A DNA stretch of 64,000 nucleotides. It comes from Kiritimatiellia bacterium (GTDB lineage Bacteria > Verrucomicrobiota > Kiritimatiellia > UBA8416 > JBFIFS01). The notes under the pieces are model-generated. The model did not search any database and had not been told where the DNA came from. It saw nothing but the letters and a program-made list of their open reading frames with translations. The stretch spans positions 2,644 through 66,643 of the forward strand of contig JBFIFS010000002.1 of the NCBI GenBank assembly GCA_041602695.1. The letters run 5' to 3'. Each line of letters opens with the position of its first letter. Position 1 is the first letter of the stretch. The position numbers and the translations under genes are program-made. Positions 18,487 through 56,797 of this stretch are shown here, one piece after another.

Positions 18487-18740
18487 AACAGCGATCCTTC
18501 TTCCTCTTCGCCTTCATCGAAGTCCTCGGTTTCAACTCCCCCGTCTTTCTTAACCAGGACTTCGACCTTCTTCTGGACTTCGTTCAGCTTCTTTCTGCAC
18601 TCTTTCAGCAGGCCCTGTCCCTCCTCGAACCTGGCGATCATATCGTCGAGCGGTAAATTGCCCTGCTCCATCTCCTCAACAATCTTCTCCAGCCTTTCCA
18701 GCGACTTCTCGAAACTCTTGGTTTCCTTCTTAGCCGGCAT
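18483..18740 (-). CDS. xseB: exodeoxyribonuclease VII small subunit
   Basis: 85 aa with the XseB signature FEKSLERLEKIVEEMEQGNLPLDDMIARFEEG. Confidence 0.85.
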   Translation of the reverse strand: MPAKKETKSFEKSLERLEKIVEEMEQGNLPLDDMIARFEEGQGLLKECRKKLNEVQKKVEVLVKKDGGVETEDFDEGEEEEGSLF

Positions 18741-18760
18741 CAGCGCCTCCCCTTGCGTAG

Positions 18761-20032
18761 TTACGTTGTAGACACATCATCAACAGTCGAGCGGACTTCA
18801 CCGTCCGCAAGCACGGTGGTAATTCTTTGTCCCTTGGCGAGCCCCTCAACCGAAGTAAGGCATTTCCCGTTAGCCCCCTGCGTAAGGCTATAGCCCCGCT
18901 TAAGGACACCCTTGGGGTTCATTGCCCGCAGGGCGCTCTCTGCCCGGCCAAGGACTGCCGCGGCCCTCTCGCATCTGAGCTGTGCCCCGGCAGTGAGACG
19001 CTGCGAGGCCTCATCAAGCACCTGAGTGATCTCGCGGGTGGAAGACACCAGCTCATGCCGCAGCGTAACGCTTAGACTCTTCAGGCGCTCCCTGTACTGC
19101 CTCACGAGGTTCTGCGGTTCCCGGAAAACATAGCTGCCGGCCATAGTATTGAACCTGCCCTCATACAGCGTGATCGCCTCCCTGAGAATGCGCACCATGG
19201 AAACAGACCTCTCATTTAGCGCGCCCAGAAACTCTTCTTTTCTACCGACCACCAACTCAGCAGCCGCAGAAGGAGTAGGCGCACGAAGATCGGCCACGAA
19301 ATCCGAAATCGTAAAATCAATTTCGTGCCCCACAGCGGATATAACTGGAACTCGAGAGCGCCAGATCGCACGCGCGACCGCCTCCTCATTGAACGCCCAT
19401 AGATCCTCAATACTTCCCCCACCGCGCCCAACGATCATAACATCCAGACCGCCACGCGCATTCAAGAGGTCTATCCCTTCAGCGATCTCGTCTGCCGCTC
19501 CATCACCCTGCACCCTGACAGGCGCTATGGTCACATGGATATTCGGAAACCGCCTGTCTATAACATTCAGGATATCCCTTATCGCAGCACCCGTGCGCGA
19601 GGTGACGACGCCTACATGGCGAGGAAGCAAAGGGAGCTGCTTCTTCGCAGAGGCCTCAAAAAGGCCCTCTTTTCTGAGCTTCTCCTTAAGCTCCTCGAAC
19701 TTCTTCTGGAGGTCTCCTTTGCCCACCTCCTCGACTGTCCTGACCAGAATCTGATAGTTCCCGCCCCGCTCGTAGACCGTGGCCCTTCCGTAGACGCGCA
19801 CCATGTCGCCATCCTTGATTACCTGACCGGGCTTCTGGCTGCCGCGAAAGAGGACCGCCGATATCTGCGAAGAGGCATCCTTAAGCGTGAAATAGCAGTG
19901 GCCTGAGCTTGGACGTCGAAGGTTTGAGACCTCTCCCTCGATCCAGACGCTCCCTATCTCGCCCTCCAGCAGGGCCTTGATGCGCCGGGTGACCGCGCTG
20001 ACAGACAGAACTTTGCGCTGTGTGTCACTCAT
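18761..20032 (-). CDS. xseA: exodeoxyribonuclease VII large subunit
   Basis: N-terminal OB fold (SVWIEGEVSNL) plus the catalytic region. Confidence 0.85.
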   Translation of the reverse strand: MSDTQRKVLSVSAVTRRIKALLEGEIGSVWIEGEVSNLRRPSSGHCYFTLKDASSQISAVLFRGSQKPGQVIKDGDMVRVYGRATVYERGGNYQILVRTVEEVGKGDLQKKFEELKEKLRKEGLFEASAKKQLPLLPRHVGVVTSRTGAAIRDILNVIDRRFPNIHVTIAPVRVQGDGAADEIAEGIDLLNARGGLDVMIVGRGGGSIEDLWAFNEEAVARAIWRSRVPVISAVGHEIDFTISDFVADLRAPTPSAAAELVVGRKEEFLGALNERSVSMVRILREAITLYEGRFNTMAGSYVFREPQNLVRQYRERLKSLSVTLRHELVSSTREITQVLDEASQRLTAGAQLRCERAAAVLGRAESALRAMNPKGVLKRGYSLTQGANGKCLTSVEGLAKGQRITTVLADGEVRSTVDDVSTT

Positions 20033-31146: not shown

Positions 31147-31379
31147 TTTGTTGCTCCTCTAATGATTCCTTACTGGAAACCGCAAAAAATTAGCACTTCT
31201 CAGCATATTGTCAATGAAACAGGCAGCTATTTATAAACTCTTTTCATCCATACTGCACCACGCGTCATTGACCTTGCTCTATCTTTTTCTATACTCGGCT
31301 CGTGGATAGATCACTTGCAAAGACGAGCTGGCGCTCCTTCACGCAGGACGAGCGCAACCTGTTTACTGCCGGAGCCTGC

Positions 31380-32012
31380 ATGCTTATCTGCTGGATAGCA
31401 GCGGTGGCAACTCTATGGCGAATGGCACACCCTCTCTGGGACGACCTCCTTACAATGGGCTTCACTGAGATTTTTCTCGGCCGCGCTGCAGCCATTGCCC
31501 AGGCCACCCAAATCGAAATGAATACCACCGTCATAGTCCTCTTTACCACACACATTGACATTATGACCGTCTTCCTGCTCTTCCCGATCCTCACCCTGTC
31601 CTATCGCAGCCTTTTCAAGGAATCTTTCTACCAAAAACACATGAAGCCCGTTTTCGCTGCCGCTACCAAGAGTGTGTCGCGGTTCAGCGAGGCCAAAGTC
31701 GCGGGGGTGTTTCTCTTTGTGTGGTTTCCTTTCTGGGGTACAGGCGTCGTCGTCGGAGCCATTCTCGGGTATCTGCTGGACCTCCGCACCTGGGTCAACA
31801 TGCTCACCGTCAGCCTCGGCACCTTGACCGCTATCCTTTGCTGGGTTTTCGCTTACGACAAGCTGTTCACTTGGCTCGGAGGAATAAGCAACAGCATACC
31901 CGCTATCTTCACCGGGCTTCTACTTGCGGCATTGATCGTGTGGAACGTCGTGCACGGAGTTAAGAACGCCAAGCGGAACGGCGCATCAAAGAGAAGATCA
32001 AAGAGCCGCTAG
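31380..32012 (+). CDS. small multidrug export-like membrane protein (Sm_multidrug_ex family)
   Basis: Polytopic membrane protein with the FPFWGTGVVVGAILGYLLDL motif. A TTGACC-16-TATACT promoter lies upstream. The track ORF starts at a GTG at 31302. Confidence 0.5.
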   Translation: MLICWIAAVATLWRMAHPLWDDLLTMGFTEIFLGRAAAIAQATQIEMNTTVIVLFTTHIDIMTVFLLFPILTLSYRSLFKESFYQKHMKPVFAAATKSVSRFSEAKVAGVFLFVWFPFWGTGVVVGAILGYLLDLRTWVNMLTVSLGTLTAILCWVFAYDKLFTWLGGISNSIPAIFTGLLLAALIVWNVVHGVKNAKRNGASKRRSKSR

Positions 32013-33727
32013 AGCTTGTCTGCGTAAGGTATTTTGAGCCCATAATCCCTCGCAAGTTTCAGCAATGCTCCCCGGTAGGCCTCGTCACCTGTGCGCGCTA
32101 TTTCACCCACAAGATGGTAAGCCTTCTGCATCGCCCATTCCTGCCGCACATCTTTTGCGCCCTTCCTGGCATCGTCCTCAACGGAAAGATCGAAAATCAT
32201 ATCGCATTTCGTGTCCCCCGCAGCACCCATAGCCTGAAAAGTAACGCGCGCCATGCTCTTTGGCAGCCGGCCGTAAATCACGAGCGGATCATCCAAATAC
32301 AAGTGCCGCACCTTTGCCGGATAGACCTCTACTCCATTACCCGCAAACGCAAGCTTAAGATTGGAAAGGACCGGCCTGCTGATTGCCTGCACCTGATTCG
32401 TGAAATCCTCAGCGATTGACCACCGCCCTCCCTTCACGACGTGTGTCGCTCCTCCGTTGCAGTAACTCAGTATATCGAGGAGAAACATGTTCGCGTCTGA
32501 CCTTGTGCCCATCGTATAAACCGACACGCCATGCTCATTGGCCTTGGTGAACTCACGTATTATCGCAGCACTTTCAACGATCCCTGTAGTCGCAAGTCCG
32601 TCTGTGACAAGAAAGGCCACGCAAGGGCGCCCCTTTTCAACCTTCAGGTCCCGCAAAGCACCCATCGAAGCGAGAATGTCGGTATTTCCTGCGGACCGCA
32701 GATTGGAAGCGTATCTCTTTCCTTTCTCAAGGCTGCCCCCGGAAGGCCGGACCCAATCCTCAAAGCAGAAGACCGGCTTGTCACTGAACGAGACTATATT
32801 AAATCGGTCTTCTTCTGAAACGAGGCGCAGGCTCGCGGCAATGCCTTTGCGACAAAAATGCAGCCGCTGCTCAGCCATGCTGGCCGATGAGTCCTGCACG
32901 AAGACGATGTCCTTCGGAAGCACGGGAAGCACGTCTTCCCCCTTCCTCCTGACTTCGAGCTTGAAATATGCATTCTCCGAGCTGAAAAAGGGTGTGTAGA
33001 CAGTCAGTTCCGCGCGCAGGAAGTCGTCAATCGAGCGAATCCTCCTCTCGCCTTTCTCGGCCTCATCAAGGGCCTCGGAAATACCCCCCGTTTCCGGGCT
33101 GGGCCCCCGCACGGGAGCATCTTCCCGCGCCGGCGGAGCAAGCGGCAGGACTTGCTCACCATTCTCGATTTGACGACCCCCGCCTATCGGAGCCGGCGCT
33201 GACGCCCTTCCCAACTCCTCGTAGTCAACGGGATAAACGATATCCGGTGCATCTCCACCCCTTGCGATCTCCGGAATGATTCTCCGGTTTTCCCTGACGA
33301 CATCCTTTCCAATAAGCTTCTCCGATATGTCCAGCAGCTCCCGACGCGGCTGCCAGGAGCCCTCATCTTCCCGCTGTGAGTGCTTCAGCAATGCCGCTTC
33401 AGCCCCCGAAACATTACCGTCCCCCGCATCTACCGGATCTATCAGGCCGGGATCATAATCCCTGCGGAATTCACCTATCTCGCTCCCGGCCTCCCCGCCC
33501 CGCCCGCCACCGGCACCGCTCGTTTCTCTAACCCGGCGAGGGACGGTTTCTTTGACTTCCTGAAGAGCAAATCTCCGCTTCTGCTTTGTTGCAGCACCCT
33601 TGAGCTTCACAAACTCAAAAGTCACACTGGAAAGCCAGACCAGCGCCCCTAAGTGCAGGATTGCCGAAAGAACGATCGAAAGTGCAACAAATATGAAGGT
33701 ATGCGTTGCTTGCCGCTTACTCGTCAT
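32009..33727 (-). CDS. membrane-anchored von Willebrand factor A domain protein with Pro/Gly-rich spacer (TonB-like topology)
   Basis: N-terminal TM helix (FIFVALSIVLSAILHLGALVWL), then about 170 aa of low-complexity Gly/Pro/Ala-rich linker, then a VWA domain with an intact MIDAS (DSSASM ... FLVTDG). It is the last gene of the exbB-exbD-TPR cluster. Confidence 0.65.
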   Translation of the reverse strand: MTSKRQATHTFIFVALSIVLSAILHLGALVWLSSVTFEFVKLKGAATKQKRRFALQEVKETVPRRVRETSGAGGGRGGEAGSEIGEFRRDYDPGLIDPVDAGDGNVSGAEAALLKHSQREDEGSWQPRRELLDISEKLIGKDVVRENRRIIPEIARGGDAPDIVYPVDYEELGRASAPAPIGGGRQIENGEQVLPLAPPAREDAPVRGPSPETGGISEALDEAEKGERRIRSIDDFLRAELTVYTPFFSSENAYFKLEVRRKGEDVLPVLPKDIVFVQDSSASMAEQRLHFCRKGIAASLRLVSEEDRFNIVSFSDKPVFCFEDWVRPSGGSLEKGKRYASNLRSAGNTDILASMGALRDLKVEKGRPCVAFLVTDGLATTGIVESAAIIREFTKANEHGVSVYTMGTRSDANMFLLDILSYCNGGATHVVKGGRWSIAEDFTNQVQAISRPVLSNLKLAFAGNGVEVYPAKVRHLYLDDPLVIYGRLPKSMARVTFQAMGAAGDTKCDMIFDLSVEDDARKGAKDVRQEWAMQKAYHLVGEIARTGDEAYRGALLKLARDYGLKIPYADKL

Positions 33728-36062
33728 TGCCACCCCCATCCCCACCTGATGGATAGCGCCTCGATAATTCTTCCAGTGCCTTATCACCCTCCCTCTTCAT
33801 GCCGGCCAGGCCATAAGCCCTGGCCGCGGAAGCCAGCGCGCGCGGAACAAGAACCTTGTCCTCGAACAGGACTGCGACACTCATAAAGTAGCGCGCAGCT
33901 TTCTCATAATCTTTCTTCAGCTCCGCAGTGTCACCAAGCCCCAGATATGCACGCGCCCTTACAGGCACACCTTCCCCTCCCAACGCGAGCTCAGCGGCCG
34001 CCGCAAAATACTCCTGTGCCGCCTCCAGGTCTTGCGCCTTCAGCGCCCCTTCGCCCAGCGACAGCGCAGCCTCGGCCTTGAAAAGTGATTCCTCCTCAAT
34101 CTGGTAGGCCGCCGCAAACATCTTCAGGGACTCCTTCTCGCTCCCCGCCAGACCGTTCGCCCTGCCCTGAAAACAGAAGGCCTCCTGCCTTTCAACAGGA
34201 AGCTCAGACAAGCGCTGGAGCTTCTCTGCCGCATCAACAGATTTCCTGCCGTCGTTCTGATTGAGGCGATAGCCTGCCAGCCAAGTAAAGATGTTCCTTC
34301 CTGCTGATTTCAGCTCTTCCTCTCCGGACAGGCGCTGCAACTCATCAGCCGCGCGCTTCTCGTCACCTGCCCTGTAGATAGCCAGCGCCCGATAAGCACG
34401 CGCCTTTGCTGCCATGGTTCCCTCCAAACCGAGCTCAAGCGACTTCCCAAACGACTGCTCCGCGGACTTGTGCTGGCCGCGTTCCGCAGCTATGAGCCCC
34501 TTCCAGAACCATGCCTCATTTGCCTTCGCGTCTTCCGCATAGCGGCGCAGGAGAAGGTCTACTGTCACCTCGGCTTCCTTCATGCGCTTCAAACGCACCT
34601 CTGCAGCAGCCAGGTTCAACAGCGACTCAGGAACCAGCTCATGCTCGGAATATTTCGAAACCATTTCCCTCCATGCCGACGCTGCTTCCTCCAGCTGGCC
34701 GGCCTCCATCCGGCAAAGGCCGCAAGCGAGCAGGGCCTTAGGAGCCAGCGCTCCTTTTGAGAAACGTTGCGCTACCTCTGCATATAGGCCAGCAGCCCCC
34801 TTCCAGTCCTTTCTGGAACGAAGGATTCCCGCGAGGCGAAATGACACTTGTTCAATGAACCGCCCTTCCGGAAATTCCTTGAGCAGCTTGCGGTAGAATT
34901 GCACGGCCTGATCGTTTCTTTCTGCCTCTTCACTGGCCCGCCCCTTAAGCCACAACACGTCCTCTGCAACCTTGCTTTCCTTCCAATCCCCGCCTTCCAC
35001 TGACGAGAGAACGGACTCATATTCCTCGAGGGCGAAATAGCATAGGGCACGCTCATATACATATGCATACGAGTTGCCTCCACCCATCTCGATAAGAAAA
35101 CTGTACGTTCGGACGGCATCACGGTTCTTCTTAAGGGCCCGCTCACTGTTGGCCTTGAGGTACAGCCAGTGCCTCTTCATCTCTACCGACTGCTCTTCTC
35201 CCTGCAGCGCCGTTTCGGCGACTTCCAGGGCTTTAGCTGTATAACCGGCATTATACTGGGCCCAAGCGGCATCAAGCTTCGACTCCCTCGCCCGCTTGTC
35301 CTCCGGATATTGCCTGGCAAGTTCAGCGAACGCCCGCGAACTCTCCTCAAATGAGCTGCGCTCAAACTCAAGCCTGCCTATCTGGTACAAGGCCTCAGCA
35401 GCAACCCGATCGGAAATGGTATTGGTGGCCGCAGCCCTGTAATACCTTAAGACCCTGCCGGGACTCTCGCCGCGGGCCGCACCTATCTCGGCTAGGCGGA
35501 GAAGCGCAAAGGGAGCATAATCCGAGGATGGGAAGTCGTTTGCTATCACTCCATATGCCTTCTCCGCGGCATTTGTTTTGTTCACAGCCAGCAGCGCGTC
35601 ACCAATAAAGTAATGACAGGCCGAAGCCACTGGCTCGCCGGGCTTTCGCTCGAGAACCATCCTGTAGAGCTCCACGCCATCTTCATACCTCTTCTCCGAG
35701 ATGAAGATATCGGCGCGCTTCACCCCTGCCTTGGCAGCGTATTCGCTCTCAGGAAACAGCTTGAACACTTTAGCATACTGCTTCTGGGCCTGGCCACTGT
35801 CGCCGAGGTGCCTGTAAGCATCGCCAAGCCGATAATGCGCTGCATCTGCTGCCGGATGAGACGGCTCGGCCTCCAGCAGTTTGGTGTATTCCTCAATCGC
35901 CAGATTGTAAAGCTCCCGTGCAAAGAGGCCGTCGGCAAACTGCATTCGTTCCTGCGCCGACATCGTATTCGCCAACACCGGCATCAGGGTTGACAGGATA
36001 AGCCCGCCAGCCACTGCGAGACGTATGGCGCTGTTTGTATTCGTCCGGTAGCAATACGACAT
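33717..36062 (-). CDS. tetratricopeptide repeat protein (secreted/periplasmic)
   Basis: Signal peptide (AIRLAVAGGLILSTLMPVLANT) followed by more than 15 TPR-like repeats (YbgF/TolA-accessory-like). Start placed at MSYCY; the track ORF starts at 36179. Confidence 0.7.
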   Translation of the reverse strand: MSYCYRTNTNSAIRLAVAGGLILSTLMPVLANTMSAQERMQFADGLFARELYNLAIEEYTKLLEAEPSHPAADAAHYRLGDAYRHLGDSGQAQKQYAKVFKLFPESEYAAKAGVKRADIFISEKRYEDGVELYRMVLERKPGEPVASACHYFIGDALLAVNKTNAAEKAYGVIANDFPSSDYAPFALLRLAEIGAARGESPGRVLRYYRAAATNTISDRVAAEALYQIGRLEFERSSFEESSRAFAELARQYPEDKRARESKLDAAWAQYNAGYTAKALEVAETALQGEEQSVEMKRHWLYLKANSERALKKNRDAVRTYSFLIEMGGGNSYAYVYERALCYFALEEYESVLSSVEGGDWKESKVAEDVLWLKGRASEEAERNDQAVQFYRKLLKEFPEGRFIEQVSFRLAGILRSRKDWKGAAGLYAEVAQRFSKGALAPKALLACGLCRMEAGQLEEAASAWREMVSKYSEHELVPESLLNLAAAEVRLKRMKEAEVTVDLLLRRYAEDAKANEAWFWKGLIAAERGQHKSAEQSFGKSLELGLEGTMAAKARAYRALAIYRAGDEKRAADELQRLSGEEELKSAGRNIFTWLAGYRLNQNDGRKSVDAAEKLQRLSELPVERQEAFCFQGRANGLAGSEKESLKMFAAAYQIEEESLFKAEAALSLGEGALKAQDLEAAQEYFAAAAELALGGEGVPVRARAYLGLGDTAELKKDYEKAARYFMSVAVLFEDKVLVPRALASAARAYGLAGMKREGDKALEELSRRYPSGGDGGGNDE

Positions 36063-36096
36063 GGTTCCGACTAGCTCCCTGTATACACGCCCTGCC

Positions 36097-36519
36097 CTAC
36101 GCGTCATCAGCCTGAATTGTTGCAAAAGATATGTTGCCGATATCCGCCTCCCTGCAGAGGTCCAGGACATGTATGACATGCTCGTAAGCCGTTAGCCTGT
36201 CGGCGCGGATGAGTACCGGCTGCCCCTTGAAGAGGCTTGATACCCGGCTCAACAGCTTTCTAAGTTCCGCATCATCAAACTCTATATCGTTGATGACAAC
36301 ATCGCCACCCGCCTTGATGTTGATGATTATCTCGCCAGGAAGCCTGTCCGGCGGATCGCCCGACGTTGATGTCGGCAGAACAATGCCGATCTCGGTCTCC
36401 CACTGAGAAAACACCTGGCTGGCAATAAAAAAGCACAGCAGCAGGAATATTACGTCAATCATCGGGGCGATCTGAAAAGTCGGCGCCTCGACTTTCTGCT
36501 TTCCGCGAAAATTCACCGC
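36097..36519 (-). CDS. exbD: ExbD/TolR family biopolymer transport protein
   Basis: APMIDVIFLLLCFFIASQVF TM segment plus the ExbD periplasmic domain. A GTG start overlaps the exbB TGA as GTGA, with an AAGAGGG SD. Confidence 0.8.
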   Translation of the reverse strand, partial: AVNFRGKQKVEAPTFQIAPMIDVIFLLLCFFIASQVFSQWETEIGIVLPTSTSGDPPDRLPGEIIINIKAGGDVVINDIEFDDAELRKLLSRVSSLFKGQPVLIRADRLTAYEHVIHVLDLCREADIGNISFATIQADDA

Positions 36520-37310
36520 ACCCTCTTTGCACAAAACGCGTTAAATACATTGGCCGTCTGCGTCTCCAGAATTGATATGAGAAGCGAAGCGCGGCGCCGG
36601 AAATAGGCATAAAACATCATTGCCGGGATACCGACTATCAAACCGAAGGCCGTCGTGATCAGGGCCTCGGAAACTCCGCCGGCCAGGACCACAGGCTTAG
36701 CACTTGCCACATCCAGGGCAACCGCATTGAAGGCCTTAAGCATCCCGAAGACTGTACCCAGAAGCCCAAGCATCGGAGAGACAACCGCCACATCCAGAAG
36801 ATACTGGGTCTGCCCCTGCAGCTTCTCGGCCTCACGGGCGCCGGCCCCCTCCAGGACGTCCTTCACGATGGTTGGGTCCATGTCACTAACGCCCTTGACG
36901 TGATCCAGCCCTGACATGACGATGCCTGACAGGGCGCAGGGCTTGAACTCACAAATCCGCGTGACGTCCTCAAACGCGCCCATCCTGACCAGCTTCAGTA
37001 TTTCAGCTTCCATATCGTACGGACCCGTCTGCGAGGTCCTCAGCGACAGGAAGAAATAGACAACCAACGCCACAGTGAGGATCGAAAGCGCGATTAGAGG
37101 ATACATGACCCAGCCGCCGGCTTCAAAAATCTCACCAAGCTCCATTCTTACGGCCTTTTCAGCCGCTGCGACATCTTCGACATTTTCAGGTCCTGTCGCA
37201 GGATGCTGCGCAAATAGCGGCGCGAAAGCTGTAATCACAAAAACCGCGGCAAAGACGAGGACAAGCATCCTCCCGCCGCACCAACGTGCTGATTCACGAC
37301 TGTTTCGCAT
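36513..37310 (-). CDS. exbB: MotA/TolQ/ExbB proton channel family protein
   Basis: Three TM segments with the PMLGLLGTVFGMLKAF motif. The N-terminus is signal-peptide-like. Start placed at ATG 37310 (AAAGGG SD); the track ORF begins at a TTG at 37343. Confidence 0.8.
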   Translation of the reverse strand: MRNSRESARWCGGRMLVLVFAAVFVITAFAPLFAQHPATGPENVEDVAAAEKAVRMELGEIFEAGGWVMYPLIALSILTVALVVYFFLSLRTSQTGPYDMEAEILKLVRMGAFEDVTRICEFKPCALSGIVMSGLDHVKGVSDMDPTIVKDVLEGAGAREAEKLQGQTQYLLDVAVVSPMLGLLGTVFGMLKAFNAVALDVASAKPVVLAGGVSEALITTAFGLIVGIPAMMFYAYFRRRASLLISILETQTANVFNAFCAKRVR

Positions 37311-37355: not shown

Positions 37356-38726
37356 CTACTTTCCTGCGAGCACTTTCTCTTCAGCTTTGTCTATCTTAAC
37401 ACAAGTCTTCTGCAGCCAACCCGCAAGCGACCGTAATTTCAATTTGCATGCATCCAGGTTAAGGTTTCCGGACGAACCCAGGTGACTGCGGGATGCCAGC
37501 GACTGCTTTATTGTCTCTGCATCAACACCGGCCCCAAGCTCAGACTTTACCCTGTCGTAAGCGGCGCGGAACGGCATCCCCGCAGCAACGTATTTCAGCG
37601 CAAGGTCCGTAGCAAACACTTCGGCACTCATTCCGGCAGCCAGCGCCTTCTTGTTGCACGTAATGCCCCCAAACAGCCTGCCTGCGATATGCATACTTTC
37701 CGCCGTGATCCACACACCCTTCATTGCCGGGCCCTTAGTCTCCTGCAAGTCGCGGTTGTAGCCCCAGGGAAGCTTACTCACCACGTCGCCAACCGTTGAC
37801 GCGCAGCCCCTTATAACCGCCGCGCGCGCGCGCACAAGCTCAAGTACATCTGGATTCTTCTTCTGCGGCATAATACTGCTGCCGGTACAGAATTCCGCCG
37901 GCAAATCGAAGTATCCAAACTCCGGAGCTGTGTAGAGGATAGTGTCCTCCGCGAGACGCGACAAGGTCAGCATCGCAAACGAGCAGGCACTCAGCACCTG
38001 CGCTTCGACTTTCCCCCGCGATGCACCCGCAGTCAGCACATTGTTGACCGGACCATCGAAAGCAAGGAGCTTAGCCACCAGCTCTCGATCGATATCGACC
38101 GGCACCCCGTAGCCGGCGGCAGAGCCCAGAGGGCAGTAGTTGATCTGATTAAAGACAGACTGGAGAAACTCGGCGTCAGCGGCTAACGCTTCCGCAAATG
38201 ACGCGGCCCACAGCCCCACAGTACTGGGCATAGCGGGACGGAAATGTGTGCGCCCGGCCATAGGTGTAGACTTGTTCTTGGCGGCAAACTTCAACATAAC
38301 CGATGCCAGCTCCAGCACCCCCCCCGTAACGTCAAGCAGGCCGTCGCGTAAATACATCCGCATATCGAGCGCCGACTGGTCGTTGCGGCTGCGCGCTGTA
38401 TGCACCTTCTTGCCCAGGTCACCAAGATTCTTAGTCAGATGACGCTCAACAGCCATATGAACATCCTGGTCCCGGGCTGTTATGCTGAACTTCCCCTCTT
38501 CGTCCAGGCCTATCACGGTGCGTAAAGCCTTGAGCACACGCTTCAGTTCGGCCTGCGATAAAATAGGTTTGCAGCCCTTTATCCGCGAGAGCATGGTGAC
38601 GTGAGCAGCGGTTCCAATGCAATCGTAGCGCACCAGATTCGCGTCCAGCAGGGCATCCTCCCCTGCCGTGAACTGCAGCACGTCAGGATCTATGCTTCCG
38701 ACGATGGTCTTACTTGCTTTCTTCAT
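37356..38726 (-). CDS. argH: argininosuccinate lyase
   Basis: Fumarate-lyase family signature GSSIMPQKKNPD. Confidence 0.9.
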   Translation of the reverse strand: MKKASKTIVGSIDPDVLQFTAGEDALLDANLVRYDCIGTAAHVTMLSRIKGCKPILSQAELKRVLKALRTVIGLDEEGKFSITARDQDVHMAVERHLTKNLGDLGKKVHTARSRNDQSALDMRMYLRDGLLDVTGGVLELASVMLKFAAKNKSTPMAGRTHFRPAMPSTVGLWAASFAEALAADAEFLQSVFNQINYCPLGSAAGYGVPVDIDRELVAKLLAFDGPVNNVLTAGASRGKVEAQVLSACSFAMLTLSRLAEDTILYTAPEFGYFDLPAEFCTGSSIMPQKKNPDVLELVRARAAVIRGCASTVGDVVSKLPWGYNRDLQETKGPAMKGVWITAESMHIAGRLFGGITCNKKALAAGMSAEVFATDLALKYVAAGMPFRAAYDRVKSELGAGVDAETIKQSLASRSHLGSSGNLNLDACKLKLRSLAGWLQKTCVKIDKAEEKVLAGK

Positions 38727-39954
38727 AGTCTTTCCGATCTCTTTCGATAGCGCTCTTCTCCCTGAGTTGAGCGCCCAATGTCCTTATCTCAAAATCCCGC
38801 AGCTCTTTTTCGGCGTCCTCCAGGTATCCCCTGAGCCGCCAATCCATCTTCTGGTCGATAACACCTCCGAGGAACTTACAATACGCCTTTACGAGCTCGC
38901 GAAAGTCCTCGCTCTTACCGGCAGCCCTCAGGTGCATGGCGACAAACCGGGCCTTCAGCACCTCACGTATATCCCTGTTCCTCTTCAGCCTGATAAGATC
39001 AACAAGTGTAATCTTGTCGGGCAAATCGCTATTCACGGAAATACCATAATCGGCAGGGTAAATCAACAACTGCCCCTTCAGCCAATCCAAATCCTTTATC
39101 GATGTTCCGCCAGGCAAATAAACGGTCCTTCCCTGGCGCAACATCCAAACGTCCCATGCGTAATCCGGGTCAGCGACCCCCGCCTGCGCAAGAAGTTCCT
39201 CCACATCCTCGCTATCCAGCTCGCCCAGCCGAGCAAGGCTCCTGCACGCGCCTTCTAGAAGCGCCTCGTCCCTGCCGAGCGAGAGCATCCATCCGACAAA
39301 CAGGCCGCGGGTCATTCGCAGGACTTCGTCGGACACACCGCTATCATCGGCCAGGACGTCCTGGAAAGGCACCATCTTTCCGGACTTCCATCGAGCGAGG
39401 AGCTTCTCGCTGTTCCTTTTGCGCAGCCCCGGATACAGGTTCTGGGCGATGCCCTGAGTGAGCCACTCGGGAACCTGTATGGCCTGCCCTTCATCCTGTC
39501 CGTTGCGCATTGACCAGGCCACGGTGCTGGTCAGGCAGAAAGACACCATCTCCATAAGACCCTCAGCATCTTCGGCACTGTAGTTCAGGACCGAGACAGA
39601 ATGCGTCAGGACACCCTCTTCGATCCGCGCGCCCAGTTCCATCTTCTGCGAAGGCTCAGCATCTTCGAGGAAATGTATTCGGACCAGGGGCGTTCGCGAC
39701 TTAGGCAGCTGCAACCCCGTCGCACTCACATAACGCTCGCCGAGGTCCTCGATCCAGCGCACAAAGTCATACACCATGATCCTGTCACGGCCTGACGCCA
39801 TGTATCGTCCCGATGAAGACTTGGCCGTGACAATACTTGAGACCAGTTGTCGGGCCGTCTTGACCGGATCATTTCGCGGGGAAAATGACTGACTCGCGGC
39901 TACTGAGGCGCCTGCCAGGAAGACCAATAGACTCTGGCAGGCCGACCGCGTCAT
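38710..39954 (-). CDS. hypothetical secreted protein
   Basis: 414 aa with signal peptide MTRSACQSLLVFLAGASVAASQ and no recognisable domain. It overlaps argH by 17 nt. Confidence 0.5.
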   Translation of the reverse strand: MTRSACQSLLVFLAGASVAASQSFSPRNDPVKTARQLVSSIVTAKSSSGRYMASGRDRIMVYDFVRWIEDLGERYVSATGLQLPKSRTPLVRIHFLEDAEPSQKMELGARIEEGVLTHSVSVLNYSAEDAEGLMEMVSFCLTSTVAWSMRNGQDEGQAIQVPEWLTQGIAQNLYPGLRKRNSEKLLARWKSGKMVPFQDVLADDSGVSDEVLRMTRGLFVGWMLSLGRDEALLEGACRSLARLGELDSEDVEELLAQAGVADPDYAWDVWMLRQGRTVYLPGGTSIKDLDWLKGQLLIYPADYGISVNSDLPDKITLVDLIRLKRNRDIREVLKARFVAMHLRAAGKSEDFRELVKAYCKFLGGVIDQKMDWRLRGYLEDAEKELRDFEIRTLGAQLREKSAIERDRKDYEESK

Positions 39955-40640
39955 TTATTGCTCACGGTGACGCGTACCTGCCCCTCTTCCACCTTGATGT
40001 CGGTGGCGTATTTGAAAGAATCGAAGCCGTTCTTCTCGAGGATCTTCCTGTAGAACATCCTGACAATACGCGTCCTTCCAGGCCCAACCATTCCAAGATG
40101 GCCTTTCTTGACCTTTCTCACGACCAGACTGCCGCCCACACCCACACAATACATGTCGTATGACGTGCCTGGCGAAAGGACTACCCCGAAAATTGTCTTC
40201 TCAAACATCTTGTCGGTTACATGCACCCGGAGATAGCCCGGCATGCATTTTACCCTGACCTCTCCCAGCCCCATTTCCTTGCCCTTTCCATACTGGAAGT
40301 AGCCATTGATGTCTGCCTCTTTGAATACGTATGCGACCGTTCGCCCCTTGCTCAGGCGGCTCATCGCCCTCAGCTGGGAGTCAACTCGCCTCCCGCCAAC
40401 GGATGTGCCCTCGCTTGCCTCAAACGGACTCGTTGGCCAGAATGTAAGGCCAAATATGCCCAGAATGACAACAACCACTCCGATTGCGAACTTAGGCCAG
40501 TGTTTGCGCATGAAGCTGACTTTGACCTGTTCCGCAACCGCTTCACTGGTCATCGCACTAAGGTCAAGTTTACCGCCGCACTGAACGCAGAAAACGCGCC
40601 CCAGCTCATTCTCTGATCCACAGGCTCCACATGTAATCAT
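39951..40640 (-). CDS. zinc-ribbon domain membrane protein (hypothetical)
   Basis: N-terminal CxxC...CxxC ribbon (CGACGSEN...CVQCGG), one TM helix, then an approximately 150-aa extracytoplasmic domain of unknown function. Confidence 0.5.
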   Translation of the reverse strand: MITCGACGSENELGRVFCVQCGGKLDLSAMTSEAVAEQVKVSFMRKHWPKFAIGVVVVILGIFGLTFWPTSPFEASEGTSVGGRRVDSQLRAMSRLSKGRTVAYVFKEADINGYFQYGKGKEMGLGEVRVKCMPGYLRVHVTDKMFEKTIFGVVLSPGTSYDMYCVGVGGSLVVRKVKKGHLGMVGPGRTRIVRMFYRKILEKNGFDSFKYATDIKVEEGQVRVTVSNK

Positions 40641-40663
40641 GGCATTACCTTTCTTAGCGCTTA

Positions 40664-40930
40664 CTAATCGCCCTTTTTGTCATTGTTTTTCGATGTACCA
40701 GTTGAGGAAGAGCTGCTTTCAGCAGACGCTTTCTCAGGCGTTCCGCTCTTCTTCTTATAATCCGTCTCGTAGAATCCGCTTCCCTTGAAAATAATCCCCG
40801 CTCCCGTGCCAAGAAGCTTCCTCACCTTATGCCGGCATTCCGGACATCTCTGCACAGGCTTGTCTTTCATGCTCTGAAACTTCTCAAAAGTGTGAGCGCA
40901 CTTGGTGCACTCATATTCATATGTCGGCAT
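40664..40930 (-). CDS. FmdB-family zinc-ribbon protein
   Basis: MPTYEYECTKCAHTFE...CPECRH matches the FmdB/CxxC_CxxC_SSSS family. It has a Ser-rich tail. Confidence 0.65.
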   Translation of the reverse strand: MPTYEYECTKCAHTFEKFQSMKDKPVQRCPECRHKVRKLLGTGAGIIFKGSGFYETDYKKKSGTPEKASAESSSSSTGTSKNNDKKGD

Positions 40931-42388: not shown

Positions 42389-42892
42389 ATGGCATTTCTA
42401 ATATTTTTGAGCGGAGACCTTAAGGGTCGAAAATTCGAGTTTGATCGCGACACTATCACTGTGGGGCGATCGCACGAAAACACAATTCAACTCAACGACC
42501 CCTCAGTCTCCAGCCAGCATTGCCATTTCGAAAGATCGGGAGACAGCTACTCTGTCACTGACCTCGGATCTACCAACGGCTCCTTCGTTAACGGCATGCA
42601 GGTCTCAGAAGACATAGAAATTCACCCGAAAGACATAATCCAGCTGGGTGACATGGAAATCATCTTCGATGCCCCTGAGCTCCTTCAGGGCGACGATTAC
42701 GCGGAGCGCACAACTACCACGGGAATCATCGTCAAACCCGGAGCGGCTGTGGACCGAGACCTTCCTGCTGATGCCGAATCAGGCTTCGCCGTACGCAAGG
42801 ACTCAAAGAAGCTCTGGCTTGTGCTCACGATCTCTGCCGTCGCGGCGGCCACTATTGCTTTCGTCTGGTTCCTGATCCGTCTCTTTAAGTAA
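42389..42892 (+). CDS. FHA domain protein with C-terminal transmembrane anchor
   Basis: FHA core (TVGRSHENTIQLNDPSVSSQHCHF...STNGSFVNG) and a C-terminal TM helix (LWLVLTISAVAAATIAFVWFLI). An AAGGAAT SD precedes the ATG. Confidence 0.7.
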   Translation: MAFLIFLSGDLKGRKFEFDRDTITVGRSHENTIQLNDPSVSSQHCHFERSGDSYSVTDLGSTNGSFVNGMQVSEDIEIHPKDIIQLGDMEIIFDAPELLQGDDYAERTTTTGIIVKPGAAVDRDLPADAESGFAVRKDSKKLWLVLTISAVAAATIAFVWFLIRLFK

Positions 42893-48268: not shown

Positions 48269-49185
48269 CGTCCTTCCTCATGCGGCTCGACGTGAACGAC
48301 AGCATCAACAACGTCAGGGCCCTCACACTGGAGCTTTCGCTTGACCGCTTCCGCTATGTCATGCCCCTCGCGAACCGTCATGTCGGCATCCACCCGCACA
48401 TGCATATCAACATACAGTCCGGGCCCTACGCGCCTGCCTCTGACCGCATGTATATTTCTTACCCCGCTGATGCTTTCCGCGAGGGCCTTGATCTTCTCCG
48501 CATCCTTTGGCGAGGATATCCCGTCCGTAAGCTCGACAAGCGCCCTATGCCCAATCCTGTAAGCAGCACGAACAATGATAACGGCGACAAGCAGTTCACC
48601 GACGTGGTCTACAAACGCCAGCTGCGGCCACACAATCGACACCCCCACGGCAAGCGCTGCAGGAATCGAACTTATAGCGTCACTCCTGTGATGCCACGCG
48701 TTAGCAAGCAGCGCGCGCGATCTGGCCGCACGCCCCTCCCTCGCCGTGAAGTGATACATGATTTCCTTCGCGACCATCGATGTGACGGCCGCGACAAGCG
48801 CTATCATGCCCGGCCCGTCCTGATGCGTCTCGCCAAGGCCCAGTATGCCGTCAACCGCGAGCCAGATTCCGCCCGCACCCAGCACCCCACCGACAAAGAG
48901 AGTCACCAGGGCTTCCATTCGCCTGTGCCCATATGGATGGCACTTGTCCGGGGGCGACATCCACCATTTGACGCCGAATATGATAGCCAAGTCCGTCGAA
49001 AGGTCTGTCAGGGTGTGAAAAGCATCGGCAGTCACAGCCTTACTGCCGCCGACAATACCGGCCCAGAACTTGAAAACCATGAGGGCGACATTAAGGCACA
49101 GACCTGCCGAGGTTATCTTTCTGATTCTGCCGACATCCTGGGAAACGGTATCGAGCGCGGGGCCACGCACGTCAGTCAGCCACAT
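48265..49185 (-). CDS. cation diffusion facilitator family transporter
   Basis: Six TM helices with the CDF signature (HTLTDLSTDLAIIFG...HRRMEALVTLF). Confidence 0.8.
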   Translation of the reverse strand: MWLTDVRGPALDTVSQDVGRIRKITSAGLCLNVALMVFKFWAGIVGGSKAVTADAFHTLTDLSTDLAIIFGVKWWMSPPDKCHPYGHRRMEALVTLFVGGVLGAGGIWLAVDGILGLGETHQDGPGMIALVAAVTSMVAKEIMYHFTAREGRAARSRALLANAWHHRSDAISSIPAALAVGVSIVWPQLAFVDHVGELLVAVIIVRAAYRIGHRALVELTDGISSPKDAEKIKALAESISGVRNIHAVRGRRVGPGLYVDMHVRVDADMTVREGHDIAEAVKRKLQCEGPDVVDAVVHVEPHEEGR

Positions 49186-50608
49186 CGCCGTCTATCTGAA
49201 AATCGATCAGCGCGCTCATCTTGTCACCAGTCAGCTTGGATTCGTTCCTTGCCTTCGAGATGAAACCATCCATAGTGAAATCATCAAAGCCAAACGTCTT
49301 GCAATAGATTGCTGCGCCTGCGTACAGGTCCGCCTTGCTCTTGCCGACATCTTCGTTCTTCTCCAGGTAGTGCGAGAAGAAACCGATAACGCGCTCTTTC
49401 GGTATCTCCACCCACGGAATCAACTTTTCCTGAACATAAATGCCCTGCCCGTCGGCCTTCGGTATGTCCAGGGCGCCGCGCGCAGTCTTCCATCCATAAG
49501 ACATCGGCTTCTTCTCGAACTGCGCTATAAGCCAGGTCATTGCGTTCGCCAGCAGCCTGTAGCGCTCAACAGGTATGTCCAGCGCTGTTACCGCCTCCTC
49601 GAACGTCAGCGATGACTGCAGGTCCTGCACCTGCTGCATTGCATCCGTGAATTGATATGATTTGAGAAGCTCAGGTAGACCGCCATAGAATCCGGCCGCC
49701 CTCGCGACCTCTCGACTTCTGTTCTCCTCACGCTGCTGAGCCAGGCGCCTCTGCTCCGCCTCGGCGTCAGCCGCCCGCTTCTCTTCAGCCACCTCGTCCC
49801 TCATCGACTCGAATTTGGGAAGGATTGCTTCCGCAGCCGCGAGCTCCTCTGCCATTCCATTTCTCAGATTCTTAGCCATTGGCACCAGCTCGGCAAATCC
49901 CGCCTGCGCGGCCGCGGCTTTGAAGGCAGTTGGCGCCTCCTTAACCCTGCCTACGATTTTCTCGCTCTGAGTCAGAATCAGCGCGCTCTCGTCAATCCTC
50001 GCCTCAATTACGCCAACGTGCTCGCACAGCTTTTCATATAGGTCCTGCCCGGCCTTGATTCGCTCTCCAAGCTTGCCGCCTATCTCATGTTGTGCCGCAT
50101 CCCCGGCTCCAGTTGCGCCAGACGTGCCCACAGCCGGTGCCGGCGGCGGCTTTGGCGCACCGTGACCAGTCAGCCCAGCGGGCATCTCCCGGCCCTTCTC
50201 ATCTACCATGACCCCGGTCCTAATAGCACCCCCGGCCTTGTCGCTCTCCGCAGGAACGGCCTTCTTGGTCTGGGCGGCTACGGTCTTCTTCCACGCTTCA
50301 GCCTTCTTCTTCTGGTCGTATTCCCGGTCATAGACCCTCGGCGCATGCTCGTAACCCACTATCTCCGGAACCAGGTTTGATGCGGTACCGAGAACCTTCC
50401 TGGCTTTCGGGGCAAATTCCTCAATACCCTCCAGAGAAGCTGCAATCTCAGCATATTGCACCTCAGCGCTCTCGACCTGCGCTTTGAAGGCCATCGCCTC
50501 CGCCTGCGCTTTCGCCTTATTCTGACTGACTCCGTAAAGGACGCCGCCGACAACCAGACCCAGTATGACAAGTATAATCGCAATCCTCATTGCATGCTCC
50601 TTTGGCAA
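49172..50608 (-). CDS. hypothetical membrane-anchored coiled-coil protein
   Basis: N-terminal TM helix (IAIILVILGLVVGGVLYGV), a long Ala/Glu/Lys-rich coiled coil with a Pro-rich segment, and a C-terminal globular part. No recognisable domain. Confidence 0.45.
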   Translation of the reverse strand: MPKEHAMRIAIILVILGLVVGGVLYGVSQNKAKAQAEAMAFKAQVESAEVQYAEIAASLEGIEEFAPKARKVLGTASNLVPEIVGYEHAPRVYDREYDQKKKAEAWKKTVAAQTKKAVPAESDKAGGAIRTGVMVDEKGREMPAGLTGHGAPKPPPAPAVGTSGATGAGDAAQHEIGGKLGERIKAGQDLYEKLCEHVGVIEARIDESALILTQSEKIVGRVKEAPTAFKAAAAQAGFAELVPMAKNLRNGMAEELAAAEAILPKFESMRDEVAEEKRAADAEAEQRRLAQQREENRSREVARAAGFYGGLPELLKSYQFTDAMQQVQDLQSSLTFEEAVTALDIPVERYRLLANAMTWLIAQFEKKPMSYGWKTARGALDIPKADGQGIYVQEKLIPWVEIPKERVIGFFSHYLEKNEDVGKSKADLYAGAAIYCKTFGFDDFTMDGFISKARNESKLTGDKMSALIDFQIDGDVAD

Positions 50609-50666
50609 TCTAAATGCACAGACTTATTTGCTTTAAAAAAGTTCTTAAGTGTATACTACTAGGACG

Positions 50667-52169: not shown

Positions 52170-52267
52170 TATTCCGGGACTGGACCTGCCCCCGTTTGCT
52201 ACTTGCATTGCTTTACGCACGACCTAATATTGAGGTTCGCGGGCAGTATTACCCCTTACAACGAATG

Positions 52268-55104: not shown

Positions 55105-55113
55105 GGAGAAGAT

Positions 55114-56586: not shown

Positions 56587-56797
56587 TGGCCCCGCACCGC
56601 CCGTTTCGGGCGTGCCTACCAAAGGCGGTGCGTCGAACGCCAGGACAGAACGCTTTGTGTGCCTTTTCCATACACAGCGCTACCAGCGACTGAGCACTTG
56701 ATTAACAAGTAAAGAAATATTCACTCGATTCGTATACCAGTCGTTGACAAGATTCACAGAAAGTATAATAATCCTATGCAGTTAATTTAGGAGTTGA

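What the first reader, a model, noticed from the sequence alone, without database searches (positions are those of the whole stretch)
32009..37310. exbB-exbD-TPR cluster ends in a TonB-shaped VWA protein instead of TonB
There are four co-directional, tightly spaced minus-strand genes: ExbB (MotA/TolQ family), ExbD (GTGA start-stop overlap with exbB), an approximately 780-aa secreted TPR protein and a 570-aa protein. The last protein has a TonB-like layout: an N-terminal membrane anchor, about 170 aa of Pro/Gly/Ala-rich low-complexity spacer, then a complete von Willebrand A domain with an intact MIDAS (DSSASM...TDG). ExbB-ExbD-(ExbD)-TonB-TPR is an established arrangement in Bacteroidota and PVC bacteria. 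Here the TonB C-terminal domain position is occupied by a metal-dependent adhesion/protein-interaction module. That points to a proton-motive-force-driven ExbBD motor that energises a VWA effector spanning the periplasm. I do not know this combination as a described system. It differs from the Bat aerotolerance operon, where VWA and TPR proteins occur without ExbBD.
Basis: partly seen in the sequence, partly recalled or inferred. Interest (0 to 1): 0.72.

Follow-up and report, generated by a model that had tools for sequence, protein, structure and literature searches.

The report
ExbBD motor with VWA-headed force transducer
A conserved four-gene operon in Kiritimatiellota/Lentisphaerota-type bacteria pairs a proton-driven ExbB-ExbD membrane motor with a periplasmic TPR protein and a TonB-shaped protein whose outer end is a metal-dependent VWA adhesion domain. 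This is a distinct, experimentally untested variant of a class of "vWA force transducers" first proposed on computational grounds in 2025.

Summary
exbB (36513-37310), exbD (36097-36516, GTGA overlap), a secreted 780-aa TPR gene and a 572-aa VWA gene (32009-33727) form one tight minus-strand block.

The VWA protein has no TonB C-terminal domain. It has an N-in membrane helix, about 190 disordered residues, and an inter-alpha-inhibitor-like VWA head with an invariant MIDAS.

Several results support coupling to the motor:
- The helix carries the TonB/TolA S-x3-H signature in all 75 N-terminally complete homologues.
- The proton-path residues of ExbD and ExbB are conserved.
- The four-gene order is kept in 52 of 59 species-level PVC genomes.

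The idea is not new. Williams-Jones et al. 2025 (PMC12204202) proposed "vWA force transducers" from AlphaFold 3 (AF3) models. Their reference proteins, from Tichowtungia, differ: no detectable sequence homology, no MIDAS, two copies and two tolR genes. Their supplement lists one genome that carries this operon as "tolQ-tolR-???- No TolA found".

I therefore rate this a new variant of a recently proposed, untested kind. The target and physiological role are unknown. A Tol-like role in envelope maintenance is my preferred guess.

The parts
36513..37310 (-). exbB (MotA/TolQ/ExbB proton-channel subunit, 265 aa from ATG 37310; the longest ORF starts at TTG 37343)
   Evidence: PF01618 E 1.6e-28. It is equidistant from solved TolQ (4.8e-12) and ExbB (8.4e-12). 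Pore residues are conserved across the family: Thr197 in 54/56 (Ser in 2), Thr231 in 56/56, Pro240 in 54/56.
36097..36516 (-). exbD (139 aa from GTG 36516; GTGA start/stop overlap with exbB)
   Evidence: PF02472 E 1.8e-23. Overlap read. The transmembrane Asp27 (long-ORF numbering, PMIDV) is present in 58/58 sequences and aligns with the FIDV segment of E. coli ExbD. There is only one exbD per locus in every relative.
33717..36107 (-). Periplasmic TPR protein (about 781-796 aa; start ATG 36107, overlapping exbD by 11 nt, or ATG 36062)
   Evidence: TPR_16, TPR_6 and YfiO hits. TIGR02795 ybgF-type scores 175 bits in 6 stretches. It has a Sec signal peptide, 53/55 homologues lack a lipobox, and the mature N-terminus is conserved as ERLQFADGLYxRG.
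32009..33727 (-). VWA-headed transducer gene (572 aa; ATG 33727 overlaps the TPR stop by 11 nt)
33629..33721 (-). Transmembrane helix (residues 3-33) carrying S21-x3-H25
   Evidence: AF2 helix 3-33 with pLDDT about 90. S and H are present in 75/75 N-terminally complete homologues, while the other helix positions vary. Five-residue flanks: N side K+R 101 and D+E 25; C side 25 and 58. This indicates N-in topology.
33554..33625 (-). Candidate motor-box strands just after the helix (residues 35-39 VTFEF, pattern hydrophobic-x-hydrophobic-x-hydrophobic; residues 53-58 FALQEV, family consensus M/I-R/K-L-x-x-V)
   Evidence: Patterns seen in alignments A1 and A4. The assignment as an ExbD-binding strand is inference by analogy with TonB/TolA.
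33047..33622 (-). Disordered periplasmic linker (residues 36-227)
   Evidence: pLDDT below 50. Rich in Gly, Glu, Ala and Arg; 7.8% Pro.
33218..33367 (-). Conserved island inside the linker (residues 121-170; W125, R128, R148, P152, R156, A160, D162)
   Evidence: Conservation of 0.43-0.63 against 0.22-0.44 elsewhere in the linker. Invariant R148 and R156. Its function is unknown; docking to the TPR protein or to ExbD is inferred.
32012..33046 (-). Globular head (residues 228-572): beta hairpin, VWA domain (273-448), beta-sandwich (452-522), helical hairpin (525-562)
   Evidence: pLDDT 84-96. Foldseek best match is ITIH1 6fpy, E 1e-20 over 352 columns, followed by ArnB and integrin beta. TIGR03788 (sortase-target VIT-VWA) matches residues 288-588 of the long ORF.
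32600..32893 (-). MIDAS residues D279, S281, S283 (32879-32893), T349 (32681-32683), D376 (32600-32602)
   Evidence: D279, S281, T349 and D376 are invariant in 73/73 homologues; S283 is Ser in 68 and Thr in 5.

Best explanation
The four genes encode one envelope machine.

Shown or strongly indicated:
- ExbB and ExbD form a proton-driven TolQR/ExbBD-type stator.
- The 572-aa protein is built like TonB/TolA: a cytoplasmic N-terminus, one membrane helix with the S-x3-H motif that TonB and TolA use to dock on the motor, and a long flexible periplasmic tether.
- Its distal domain is an inter-alpha-inhibitor-like VWA head with a functional MIDAS.

Inferred:
- Proton flow through ExbB-ExbD pulls on, or winds, the tether.
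- Force is thereby applied to whatever the MIDAS holds through a metal-bridged bond to an acidic residue. The likely partner is an outer-membrane or cell-wall-associated protein.
- The co-translated secreted TPR protein acts as a periplasmic scaffold or regulator, as CpoB does for TolA. It probably binds the conserved linker island.

The operon is near-universal in this lineage and is embedded among housekeeping genes, and the TPR repeats are CpoB-like. I therefore think the most likely physiological role is envelope maintenance (Tol-like), not nutrient import or gliding. That last step is the weakest.
For: - Gene identities and overlapping or coupled starts.
- S-x3-H in 75/75 complete homologues at 30-60% identity, with the rest of the helix variable.
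- N-in topology from charge bias.
- ExbD Asp27 in 58/58; ExbB Thr197, Thr231 and Pro240 conserved.
- Invariant MIDAS.
- The head is ITIH-like with no TonB_C.
- Four-gene order kept in 52/59 species-level genomes of Kiritimatiellia, Victivallales, Lentisphaerales and 'Verrucomicrobia' MAGs. The downstream neighbour thrS is kept in only 5/47.
- One exbD per locus.
- The TPR protein is secreted.
- The N-terminal module occurs only with this architecture: 216 representatives among 1.84 billion proteins, nearly all 570-620 aa.
- Independent published AF3 models of an analogous class place the transducer helix on the motor via the conserved His: PMC12204202.
Against: - No experiment exists for any member of the class.
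- I could not model a complex.
- Seven of 59 genomes have the VWA gene unlinked from any exbBD within 10 kb. These copies still carry S-x3-H.
- argH upstream is almost as conserved (45/49) as the operon itself, so part of the linkage signal may be inherited synteny.
- Only the S and H of the 'SHLS' motif are conserved.
- The motor cannot be assigned to the Tol or the Ton lineage.
- No target was identified.
- TonB_C and TonB-dependent transporter domains are reported in Pontiella (PMC10880615). The VWA protein is therefore not necessarily the only transducer in this group.
Confidence: 0.7

Rival explanations
1. Specific Tol reading. This operon is the TolQ-TolR-(CpoB)-(TolA) half of the lineage's Tol-Pal system. 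TolA domain III has been replaced by the VWA head, which engages TolB or Pal encoded elsewhere. CpoB has been expanded into a 780-aa TPR protein.
For: - The supplement of PMC12204202 lists Lentisphaerae bacterium RIFOXYA12_FULL_48_11 as 'tolQ-tolR-???- No TolA found', with tolB-pal elsewhere. It lists Kiritimatiella glycovorans as tolB-pal with 'unable to annotate TolA'.
- L013 comes from that same RIFOXYA12 genome and carries ExbB-ExbD-TPR-VWA.
- NCBIfam scores lean towards TolQ (85 against 62 bits) and TolR (52 against 40 bits).
- The TPR protein exceeds the ybgF/CpoB model cutoff (175 against 90 bits).
- The genomic context is housekeeping.
Against: - All TolQ, TolR and ExbB/ExbD equivalog scores are far below cutoff.
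- PDB comparison gives TolQ about equal to ExbB, and ExbD closer than TolR.
- The ybgF score is a sum over six generic repeats.
- No tolB or pal lies in the window or within 10 kb in 83 loci, although this was a low-sensitivity tblastn with E. coli Pal.
- I could not verify that the paper's 'tolQ-tolR-???' locus is L013.
- The paper used a V. vadensis TolA, so some Victivallales may have a normal TolA.
Confidence: 0.25
2. A third, unrelated motor-driven process. The transducer would power surface adhesion or exposure of an adhesin, secretion or release of a cargo, or gliding, as Williams-Jones et al. speculate for their vWA transducers.
For: - VWA/MIDAS domains are typical adhesion modules. 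The head resembles ITIH, pilus-tip adhesins and integrins.
- The paper proposes a gliding-like role.
- In the Myxococcus Agl-Glt machinery, a TolQR-like motor ultimately acts on the VWA adhesin CglB (PMC11761067, listed; own knowledge).
Against: - The operon is a near-universal, single-copy, housekeeping-embedded feature of the lineage.
- The one cultured relative checked here (Pontiella agarivorans) showed no motility; that other cultured Kiritimatiellota/Lentisphaerota are non-motile cocci is own knowledge.
- No adhesin, secretin or glt-like genes are adjacent.
Confidence: 0.3
3. TonB substitute. The VWA head energises TonB-dependent outer-membrane transporters.
For: ExbBD adjacency and the TonB-like N-terminal half.
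Against: - TonB works by beta-strand pairing of its C-terminal domain with the TonB box. No such fold is present.
- TonB_C and TBDT domains are reported separately in Pontiella.
- No TBDT is nearby.
Confidence: 0.05
4. No coupling. The VWA gene is simply a Bat-like or VIT-VWA-like neighbour that happens to sit after exbBD and a TPR gene.
For: VWA and TPR proteins co-occur in Bat operons. Seven of 59 genomes have the VWA gene elsewhere. argH is similarly syntenic.
Against: - S-x3-H is invariant in an otherwise variable helix.
- The starts are overlapping or coupled.
- There is no MoxR or DUF58 in the window.
- The linkage survives where downstream synteny is lost.
- The N-terminal module occurs only with this head.
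Confidence: 0.05

Closest known systems
vWA force transducers of Williams-Jones et al. 2025 (Mol Biol Evol msaf138, PMC12204202), SHLS type; reference proteins from Tichowtungia aerotolerans
   Same: Same architecture class: an N-terminal helix with S-x3-H, a disordered linker and a C-terminal vWA fold. The genes sit beside tolQ/tolR-like motor genes and a TPR gene in PVC bacteria. The function is unknown and the evidence is computational only.
   Different: - No detectable sequence homology (BLASTP E 6; hhalign probability 8% over 88 VWA columns).
- The Tichowtungia proteins are 474-476 aa, lack the MIDAS residues, and come as two copies with two heterologous tolR genes.
- Here there is one 572-aa ITIH-like head with an invariant MIDAS, one exbD, and the TPR gene lies between motor and transducer.
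ExbB-ExbD-TonB
   Same: The motor genes, the S-x3-H helix, the N-in topology and a long periplasmic tether.
   Different: No TonB C-terminal domain. The linker is Gly/Glu/Ala/Arg-rich rather than Pro-rich. No TBDT is nearby.
TolQ-TolR-TolA with CpoB (Tol-Pal)
   Same: A motor plus a helix-anchored transducer plus a periplasmic YbgF-type TPR protein. The genomic context is housekeeping.
   Different: No TolA domain III. tolB and pal are not adjacent. The TPR protein is three times the size of CpoB.
VIT-VWA proteins (inter-alpha-inhibitor heavy chains; TIGR03788 marine sortase targets)
   Same: The head (VWA plus the following beta-sandwich and helices) is homologous: 24-32% identity to VIT-VWA proteins, ITIH1 is the best fold match, and TIGR03788 scores 96 bits.
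   Different: The N-terminal VIT domain is replaced by the membrane helix and linker. There is no sortase signal.
Bat aerotolerance operon (BatA-E)
   Same: Membrane-anchored VWA proteins together with a TPR protein.
   Different: No MoxR ATPase or DUF58 is present. ExbBD are present. The VWA family differs.
TolQ-only 'TPH-vWA' pairs (second family in PMC12204202)
   Same: A VWA protein functionally tied to a TolQ-like pentamer.
   Different: That family has no tolR/exbD and carries an Asp in the VWA helix. Here exbD is present, and the helix has S-x3-H and no Asp.

Membership tests
vWA force transducers, SHLS type (PMC12204202) | N-terminal transmembrane helix with the S-x3-H (SHLS) motor-docking motif | tested here: met
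   S21 and H25 are present in 75/75 complete homologues. The L and the second S of SHLS are not conserved.
vWA force transducers, SHLS type (PMC12204202) | Disordered linker containing a motor (stator) box | tested here: inconclusive
   The linker is disordered. Two strand-like conserved patterns follow the helix. I have no formal definition of the box and no complex model.
vWA force transducers, SHLS type (PMC12204202) | C-terminal vWA fold in place of the TonB/TolA C-terminal domain | tested here: met
vWA force transducers, SHLS type (PMC12204202) | Synteny with tolQ/tolR-like motor genes and a TPR gene | tested here: met
   52/59 genomes. The layout differs: one exbD, and the TPR gene between motor and transducer.
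vWA force transducers, SHLS type (PMC12204202) | Sequence homology to the reference (Tichowtungia) transducers | tested here: not met
   BLASTP E 6. hhalign probability 8%, E 0.004. No tblastn hit in the window or the loci. The reference sequence was transcribed from the paper's supplement.
vWA force transducers, SHLS type (PMC12204202) | Predicted docking of the helix on the ExbB/TolQ pentamer via the conserved His | not testable with these tools
   No multimer prediction was available.
TonB | TonB C-terminal domain (PF03544 / PF13103) | tested here: not met
   No hit at E<=0.1. The whole C-terminal 345 residues are ITIH-like.
TonB | Proline-rich rigid spacer | tested here: not met
   7.8% Pro; rich in Gly, Glu, Ala and Arg.
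Tol-Pal | TolA domain III; tolB and pal in the operon | tested here: not met
   No TolA domain. No TolB or Pal domain among the roughly 34 window ORFs of at least 200 aa that were scanned. No Pal-like hit in 83 loci (low sensitivity).
Tol-Pal | TolQ/TolR equivalogs | tested here: inconclusive
   TolQ 85 bits against a cutoff of 221; TolR 52 against 127; ExbB 62; ExbD 40. PDB comparison is ambiguous.
Tol-Pal | CpoB/YbgF-type TPR protein | tested here: inconclusive
   TIGR02795 scores 175 bits against a cutoff of 90. This is a sum over 6 repeats in a 780-aa protein, and no CpoB coiled-coil was tested.
Bat aerotolerance operon | MoxR AAA+ ATPase and DUF58 genes adjacent to the VWA (BatA/BatB) genes | tested here: not met
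   None in the window or in the annotated relatives.
TolQ-only TPH-vWA pairs (PMC12204202) | No exbD/tolR; Asp-bearing trans-pore helix on the VWA protein | tested here: not met
   exbD is present in every linked locus. The helix has no conserved Asp.
VIT-VWA / inter-alpha-inhibitor-like | VIT domain N-terminal to the VWA domain | tested here: not met
   No PF08487 hit, whereas the distant homologues P0036-P0065 have it. The VWA-plus-C-terminal module itself matches.

The most novel reading that the evidence does not exclude
This operon is the 'missing TolA' of Kiritimatiellota and Lentisphaerota. In this reading it is a Tol-Pal system in which the TolA C-terminal domain has been replaced by a MIDAS-bearing, inter-alpha-inhibitor-like VWA head, so that a metal-ion bond rather than a TolA-TolB contact carries the force. 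CpoB has grown into a 780-aa periplasmic TPR scaffold. The one paper that surveyed these genomes recorded 'No TolA found' for a genome that carries this operon.
Probability: 0.25. Interest if true: 0.75.

Novelty: new variant of a known kind. Interest (0 to 1): 0.55.

Why it matters
TonB and TolA were long the only known ways to deliver inner-membrane proton-motive force to the outer envelope. A 2025 in-silico survey added vWA-ended transducers as a third type.

This locus shows that the same solution arose in a second, unrelated VWA lineage. This lineage keeps a fully functional metal-ion adhesion site, and the operon is a conserved, core-genome feature of two PVC groups.

That gives a well-defined and testable case. 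The conserved residues (His25, the ExbD Asp and the MIDAS Asp) and the cultivable relatives make it possible to ask what a motor-pulled, integrin-like bond does in a bacterial periplasm. They also make it possible to ask whether this protein substitutes for TolA where none has been found.

Tried and rejected
- **Cryptic TonB_C after the VWA domain:** rejected.
- **Bat operon:** rejected; no MoxR or DUF58.
- **Membership of the Tichowtungia family by sequence:** rejected.
- **Tol versus Ton assignment of the motor:** NCBIfam and PDB comparisons were ambiguous. The ExbB homologue search returned only family members in its top 120, so it gave no outgroup.
- **Source record of the window:** proteins 100% identical to the window (P0071, P0079, on a 74,482-bp NCBI contig) are not retrievable.
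- **Positive-inside rule with 15-residue flanks:** no bias on 22 sequences. The 5- and 10-residue flanks on 75 sequences gave a clear N-in signal.
- **Disulfide test:** C292 and C321 are both Cys in 63/73 homologues (Fisher p about 0.01, not corrected for phylogeny). C423 and C508 are not coupled. This is too weak to use.
- **Promoter and terminator scan:** counts were at chance level.
- **afdb50 fold library:** not available.
- **Multimer modelling:** not possible with the tools.

Full report
**1. What is there**

On the minus strand of 32009-37310 lie four co-directional genes.
- exbB: PF01618, E 1.6e-28.
- exbD: PF02472, E 1.8e-23.
- A large TPR gene.
- A VWA gene: PF13768, PF00092 and PF13519.

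Reading the junctions gives these boundaries.
- exbB runs from ATG 37310 to TGA 36513.
- exbD starts at GTG 36516, inside a GTGA overlap, and ends at 36097.
- The TPR gene starts at ATG 36107 (11-nt overlap) or ATG 36062 and ends at 33717.
- The VWA gene starts at ATG 33727 (11-nt overlap with the TPR stop) and ends at 32009, giving 572 aa.

**2. The 572-aa protein**

An AF2 model built on 23 homologues shows the following.
- A confident membrane helix at residues 3-33.
- About 190 residues with pLDDT below 50 (36-227).
- A confident globular part (228-572) made of a beta hairpin, a VWA domain (273-448), a beta-sandwich (452-522) and a helical hairpin (525-562).

Foldseek against the PDB puts inter-alpha-inhibitor heavy chain 1 first (6fpy, E 1e-20, 352 aligned columns). 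ArnB, pilus-tip adhesins and integrin beta subunits follow. NCBIfam's VIT-VWA sortase-target model covers the VWA domain and the region after it.

No TonB_C or TolA family appears at E<=0.1. The 'cryptic TonB domain' is thus excluded. The head is a VIT-less member of the VIT-VWA lineage, and its distant homologues P0036-P0065 still carry VIT.

The MIDAS residues D279, S281, T349 and D376 are invariant in 73/73 relatives; S283 is Ser in 68 and Thr in 5.

The spacer is rich in Gly, Glu, Ala and Arg, with only 7.8% Pro. It holds a conserved 50-residue island (121-170). It is therefore neither TonB-like in composition nor featureless.

**3. Is the protein coupled to the motor?**

Five independent observations say yes.
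- (a) In every N-terminally complete homologue (75/75; the 7 exceptions are truncated by contig ends, fragmentary, or interrupted by Ns) the helix carries S-x3-H. All other helix positions vary. S-x3-H is the part of the SHLS motif through which TonB and TolA dock on ExbB/TolQ (established knowledge, restated in PMC12204202).
- (b) The five residues flanking the helix hold K+R 101 and D+E 25 on the N side, against 25 and 58 on the C side. The N-terminus is therefore cytoplasmic and the VWA head periplasmic, as in TonB/TolA.
- (c) The motor looks functional. ExbD Asp27 is present in 58/58. ExbB Thr197 is present in 54/56 (Ser in 2), Thr231 in 56/56 and Pro240 in 54/56.
- (d) The genes are translationally coupled, both here and in relatives. 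The TPR start often overlaps the exbD stop by 4 nt.
- (e) The order exbB-exbD-TPR-VWA is kept in 52 of 59 species-level genomes with enough upstream sequence, and 9 short contigs are consistent with it. These genomes span Kiritimatiellia, Victivallales, Lentisphaerales and MAGs labelled Verrucomicrobia. VWA identity across them is only 30-41%, and the downstream neighbour (thrS here) is retained in only 5/47.

Every linked locus has exactly one exbD.

A profile of the N-terminal module alone (helix plus linker) finds only 216 representatives among 1.84 billion proteins. Nearly all are 570-620 aa. The module therefore exists only in this architecture.

**4. Caveats**

- Seven genomes have the VWA gene, still with S-x3-H, away from any exbBD within 10 kb. 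In two of them it follows a DUF1015 gene. These loci are scattered in a neighbour-joining tree, apart from one three-member clade.
- argH immediately upstream is conserved in 45/49 genomes, so part of the signal is lineage synteny.
- The motor cannot be assigned to the Tol or the Ton branch.
- No target, TonB, TolA, TolB, Pal, TBDT or second exbB is present in the 64-kb window. Roughly 34 ORFs of at least 200 aa were scanned, and a low-sensitivity tblastn added nothing.
- TonB_C and TBDT domains are reported in Pontiella (PMC10880615). A classical Ton system may therefore co-exist.

**5. The TPR protein**

It has a Sec signal peptide and no lipobox in 53/55 relatives. Its mature N-terminus is conserved. 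It is built from YbgF/CpoB-type and BamD-type repeats: TIGR02795 scores 175 bits in six stretches and TIGR03302 scores 98 bits.

By analogy with CpoB, which binds TolA (established knowledge), I infer that it binds the transducer. The conserved linker island is the obvious candidate site. This is inference only.

**6. Comparison with what is known**

A full-text search found one directly relevant paper: Williams-Jones et al., Mol Biol Evol 2025 (PMC12204202). [quoted passage not shown] AF3 models dock the helix on the motor. No phenotypes have been reported.

The paper's reference proteins from Tichowtungia were transcribed from its supplement. They differ from the protein here.
- They are 474-476 aa and lack the MIDAS residues.
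- They occur as two copies with two tolR genes.
- They show no sequence relationship to this family: BLASTP E 6, hhalign probability 8% over 88 VWA columns, and no tblastn hit in the window or any fetched locus.

The same supplement records Lentisphaerae bacterium RIFOXYA12_FULL_48_11 as 'tolQ-tolR-???- No TolA found', with tolB-pal elsewhere. It records Kiritimatiella glycovorans as tolB-pal with TolA not annotatable. Locus L013 comes from that same RIFOXYA12 genome and carries exbB-exbD-TPR-VWA.

I could not confirm that this is the locus the authors meant. If it is, the '???' is the TPR gene and the VWA transducer.

I cannot exclude that the authors' Foldseek-defined family also swept in members of the present family under 'Verrucomicrobia'.

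**7. Mechanism and role**

Shown:
- Gene content.
- Architecture.
- Inferred topology.
- Conserved motor residues, docking motif and MIDAS.
- Operon conservation.

Inferred:
- The ExbB5-ExbD2 stator pulls on the tether.
- The MIDAS holds an acidic residue of an outer-membrane or cell-wall-associated partner.
- The TPR protein scaffolds or regulates the machine.

For the physiological role I favour a Tol-like envelope-maintenance function. The reasons are that the operon is a core, single-copy, housekeeping-embedded feature, that its TPR repeats are CpoB-like, and that TolA is reported missing in these groups. A separate adhesion- or secretion-type process is about equally likely. Energising TBDTs, or no coupling at all, is unlikely.

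**8. Verdict**

The kind was proposed in 2025 and remains experimentally untested. This family is a distinct variant of it, with these features:
- An ITIH-like head.
- An intact MIDAS.
- One exbD.
- The TPR gene in the middle of the operon.
- A distribution across Kiritimatiellota and Lentisphaerota.

Interest is moderate to high for envelope biologists, chiefly because of the possible TolA replacement.

Noticed in passing
window 37356-40930 (minus strand); L001 2840-6468; L085 2498-6228: A block of four co-directional genes upstream of exbB is conserved along with the operon. It consists of an FmdB-type Zn-ribbon (88 aa), a Zn-ribbon protein with a membrane helix (229 aa), a secreted 414-aa protein without a Pfam hit, and argH. 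argH is upstream in 45/49 linked loci. Neighbouring genes overlap by 4-17 nt. Whether the three small or unknown proteins belong functionally to the motor system is unknown.
   Followed up: partly
[not shown]
   Followed up: partly
L010 8503-11554; L030 8646-11713: In the minority of genomes where the VWA gene is not next to exbBD, it directly follows a DUF1015 gene. It keeps the S-x3-H helix. In L030 the genes further upstream (xseA and a fucose-pyrophosphorylase/GHMP-kinase fusion) are the same pair found at window 15583-20032. This suggests a local rearrangement rather than a different paralogue.
   Followed up: partly
window 52196-57919 (plus strand): Three tandem sulfatase genes are followed by a GntR/periplasmic-binding-type regulator. 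This is typical of sulfated-polysaccharide degraders among Kiritimatiellota and Lentisphaerota, and it fits the taxonomic placement.
   Followed up: no
window 49172-52169: Two divergent ORFs of 478 and 506 aa have no Pfam family. One has only a weak arabinofuranosidase-like NCBIfam hit.
   Followed up: no
window 42389-42892 (plus strand) and 39951-40640 (minus strand): A small FHA-domain protein with a C-terminal membrane helix and a Zn-ribbon membrane protein lie near the operon. The second-best fold match of the VWA head is archaeal ArnB, whose partner ArnA is a Zn-ribbon-FHA protein. This is probably coincidence, because the VWA head is predicted to be periplasmic, but I did not examine it.
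   Followed up: no
window 31302-32012 (plus strand) against 32009-32011: The stop codon of the VWA gene overlaps by 4 nt the end of a convergent gene for a small multidrug-export-family membrane protein (PF06695). This leaves no room for a terminator between them.
   Followed up: no
window as a whole; P0071, P0079: Proteins 100% identical to the window's 414-aa protein and to ExbB are on record from a 74,482-bp NCBI contig. The contig cannot be retrieved. The best database match to the window's VWA protein is only 60% identical. The source lineage has no close representative among the species genomes scanned; the best is 41%.
   Followed up: partly
L083 (JAAYCM010000056.1, 1.6 kb): A contig binned as Chloroflexota carries a VWA gene that nests inside the Lentisphaerae/Kiritimatiellae clade next to L062. 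This is most likely a binning error.
   Followed up: no
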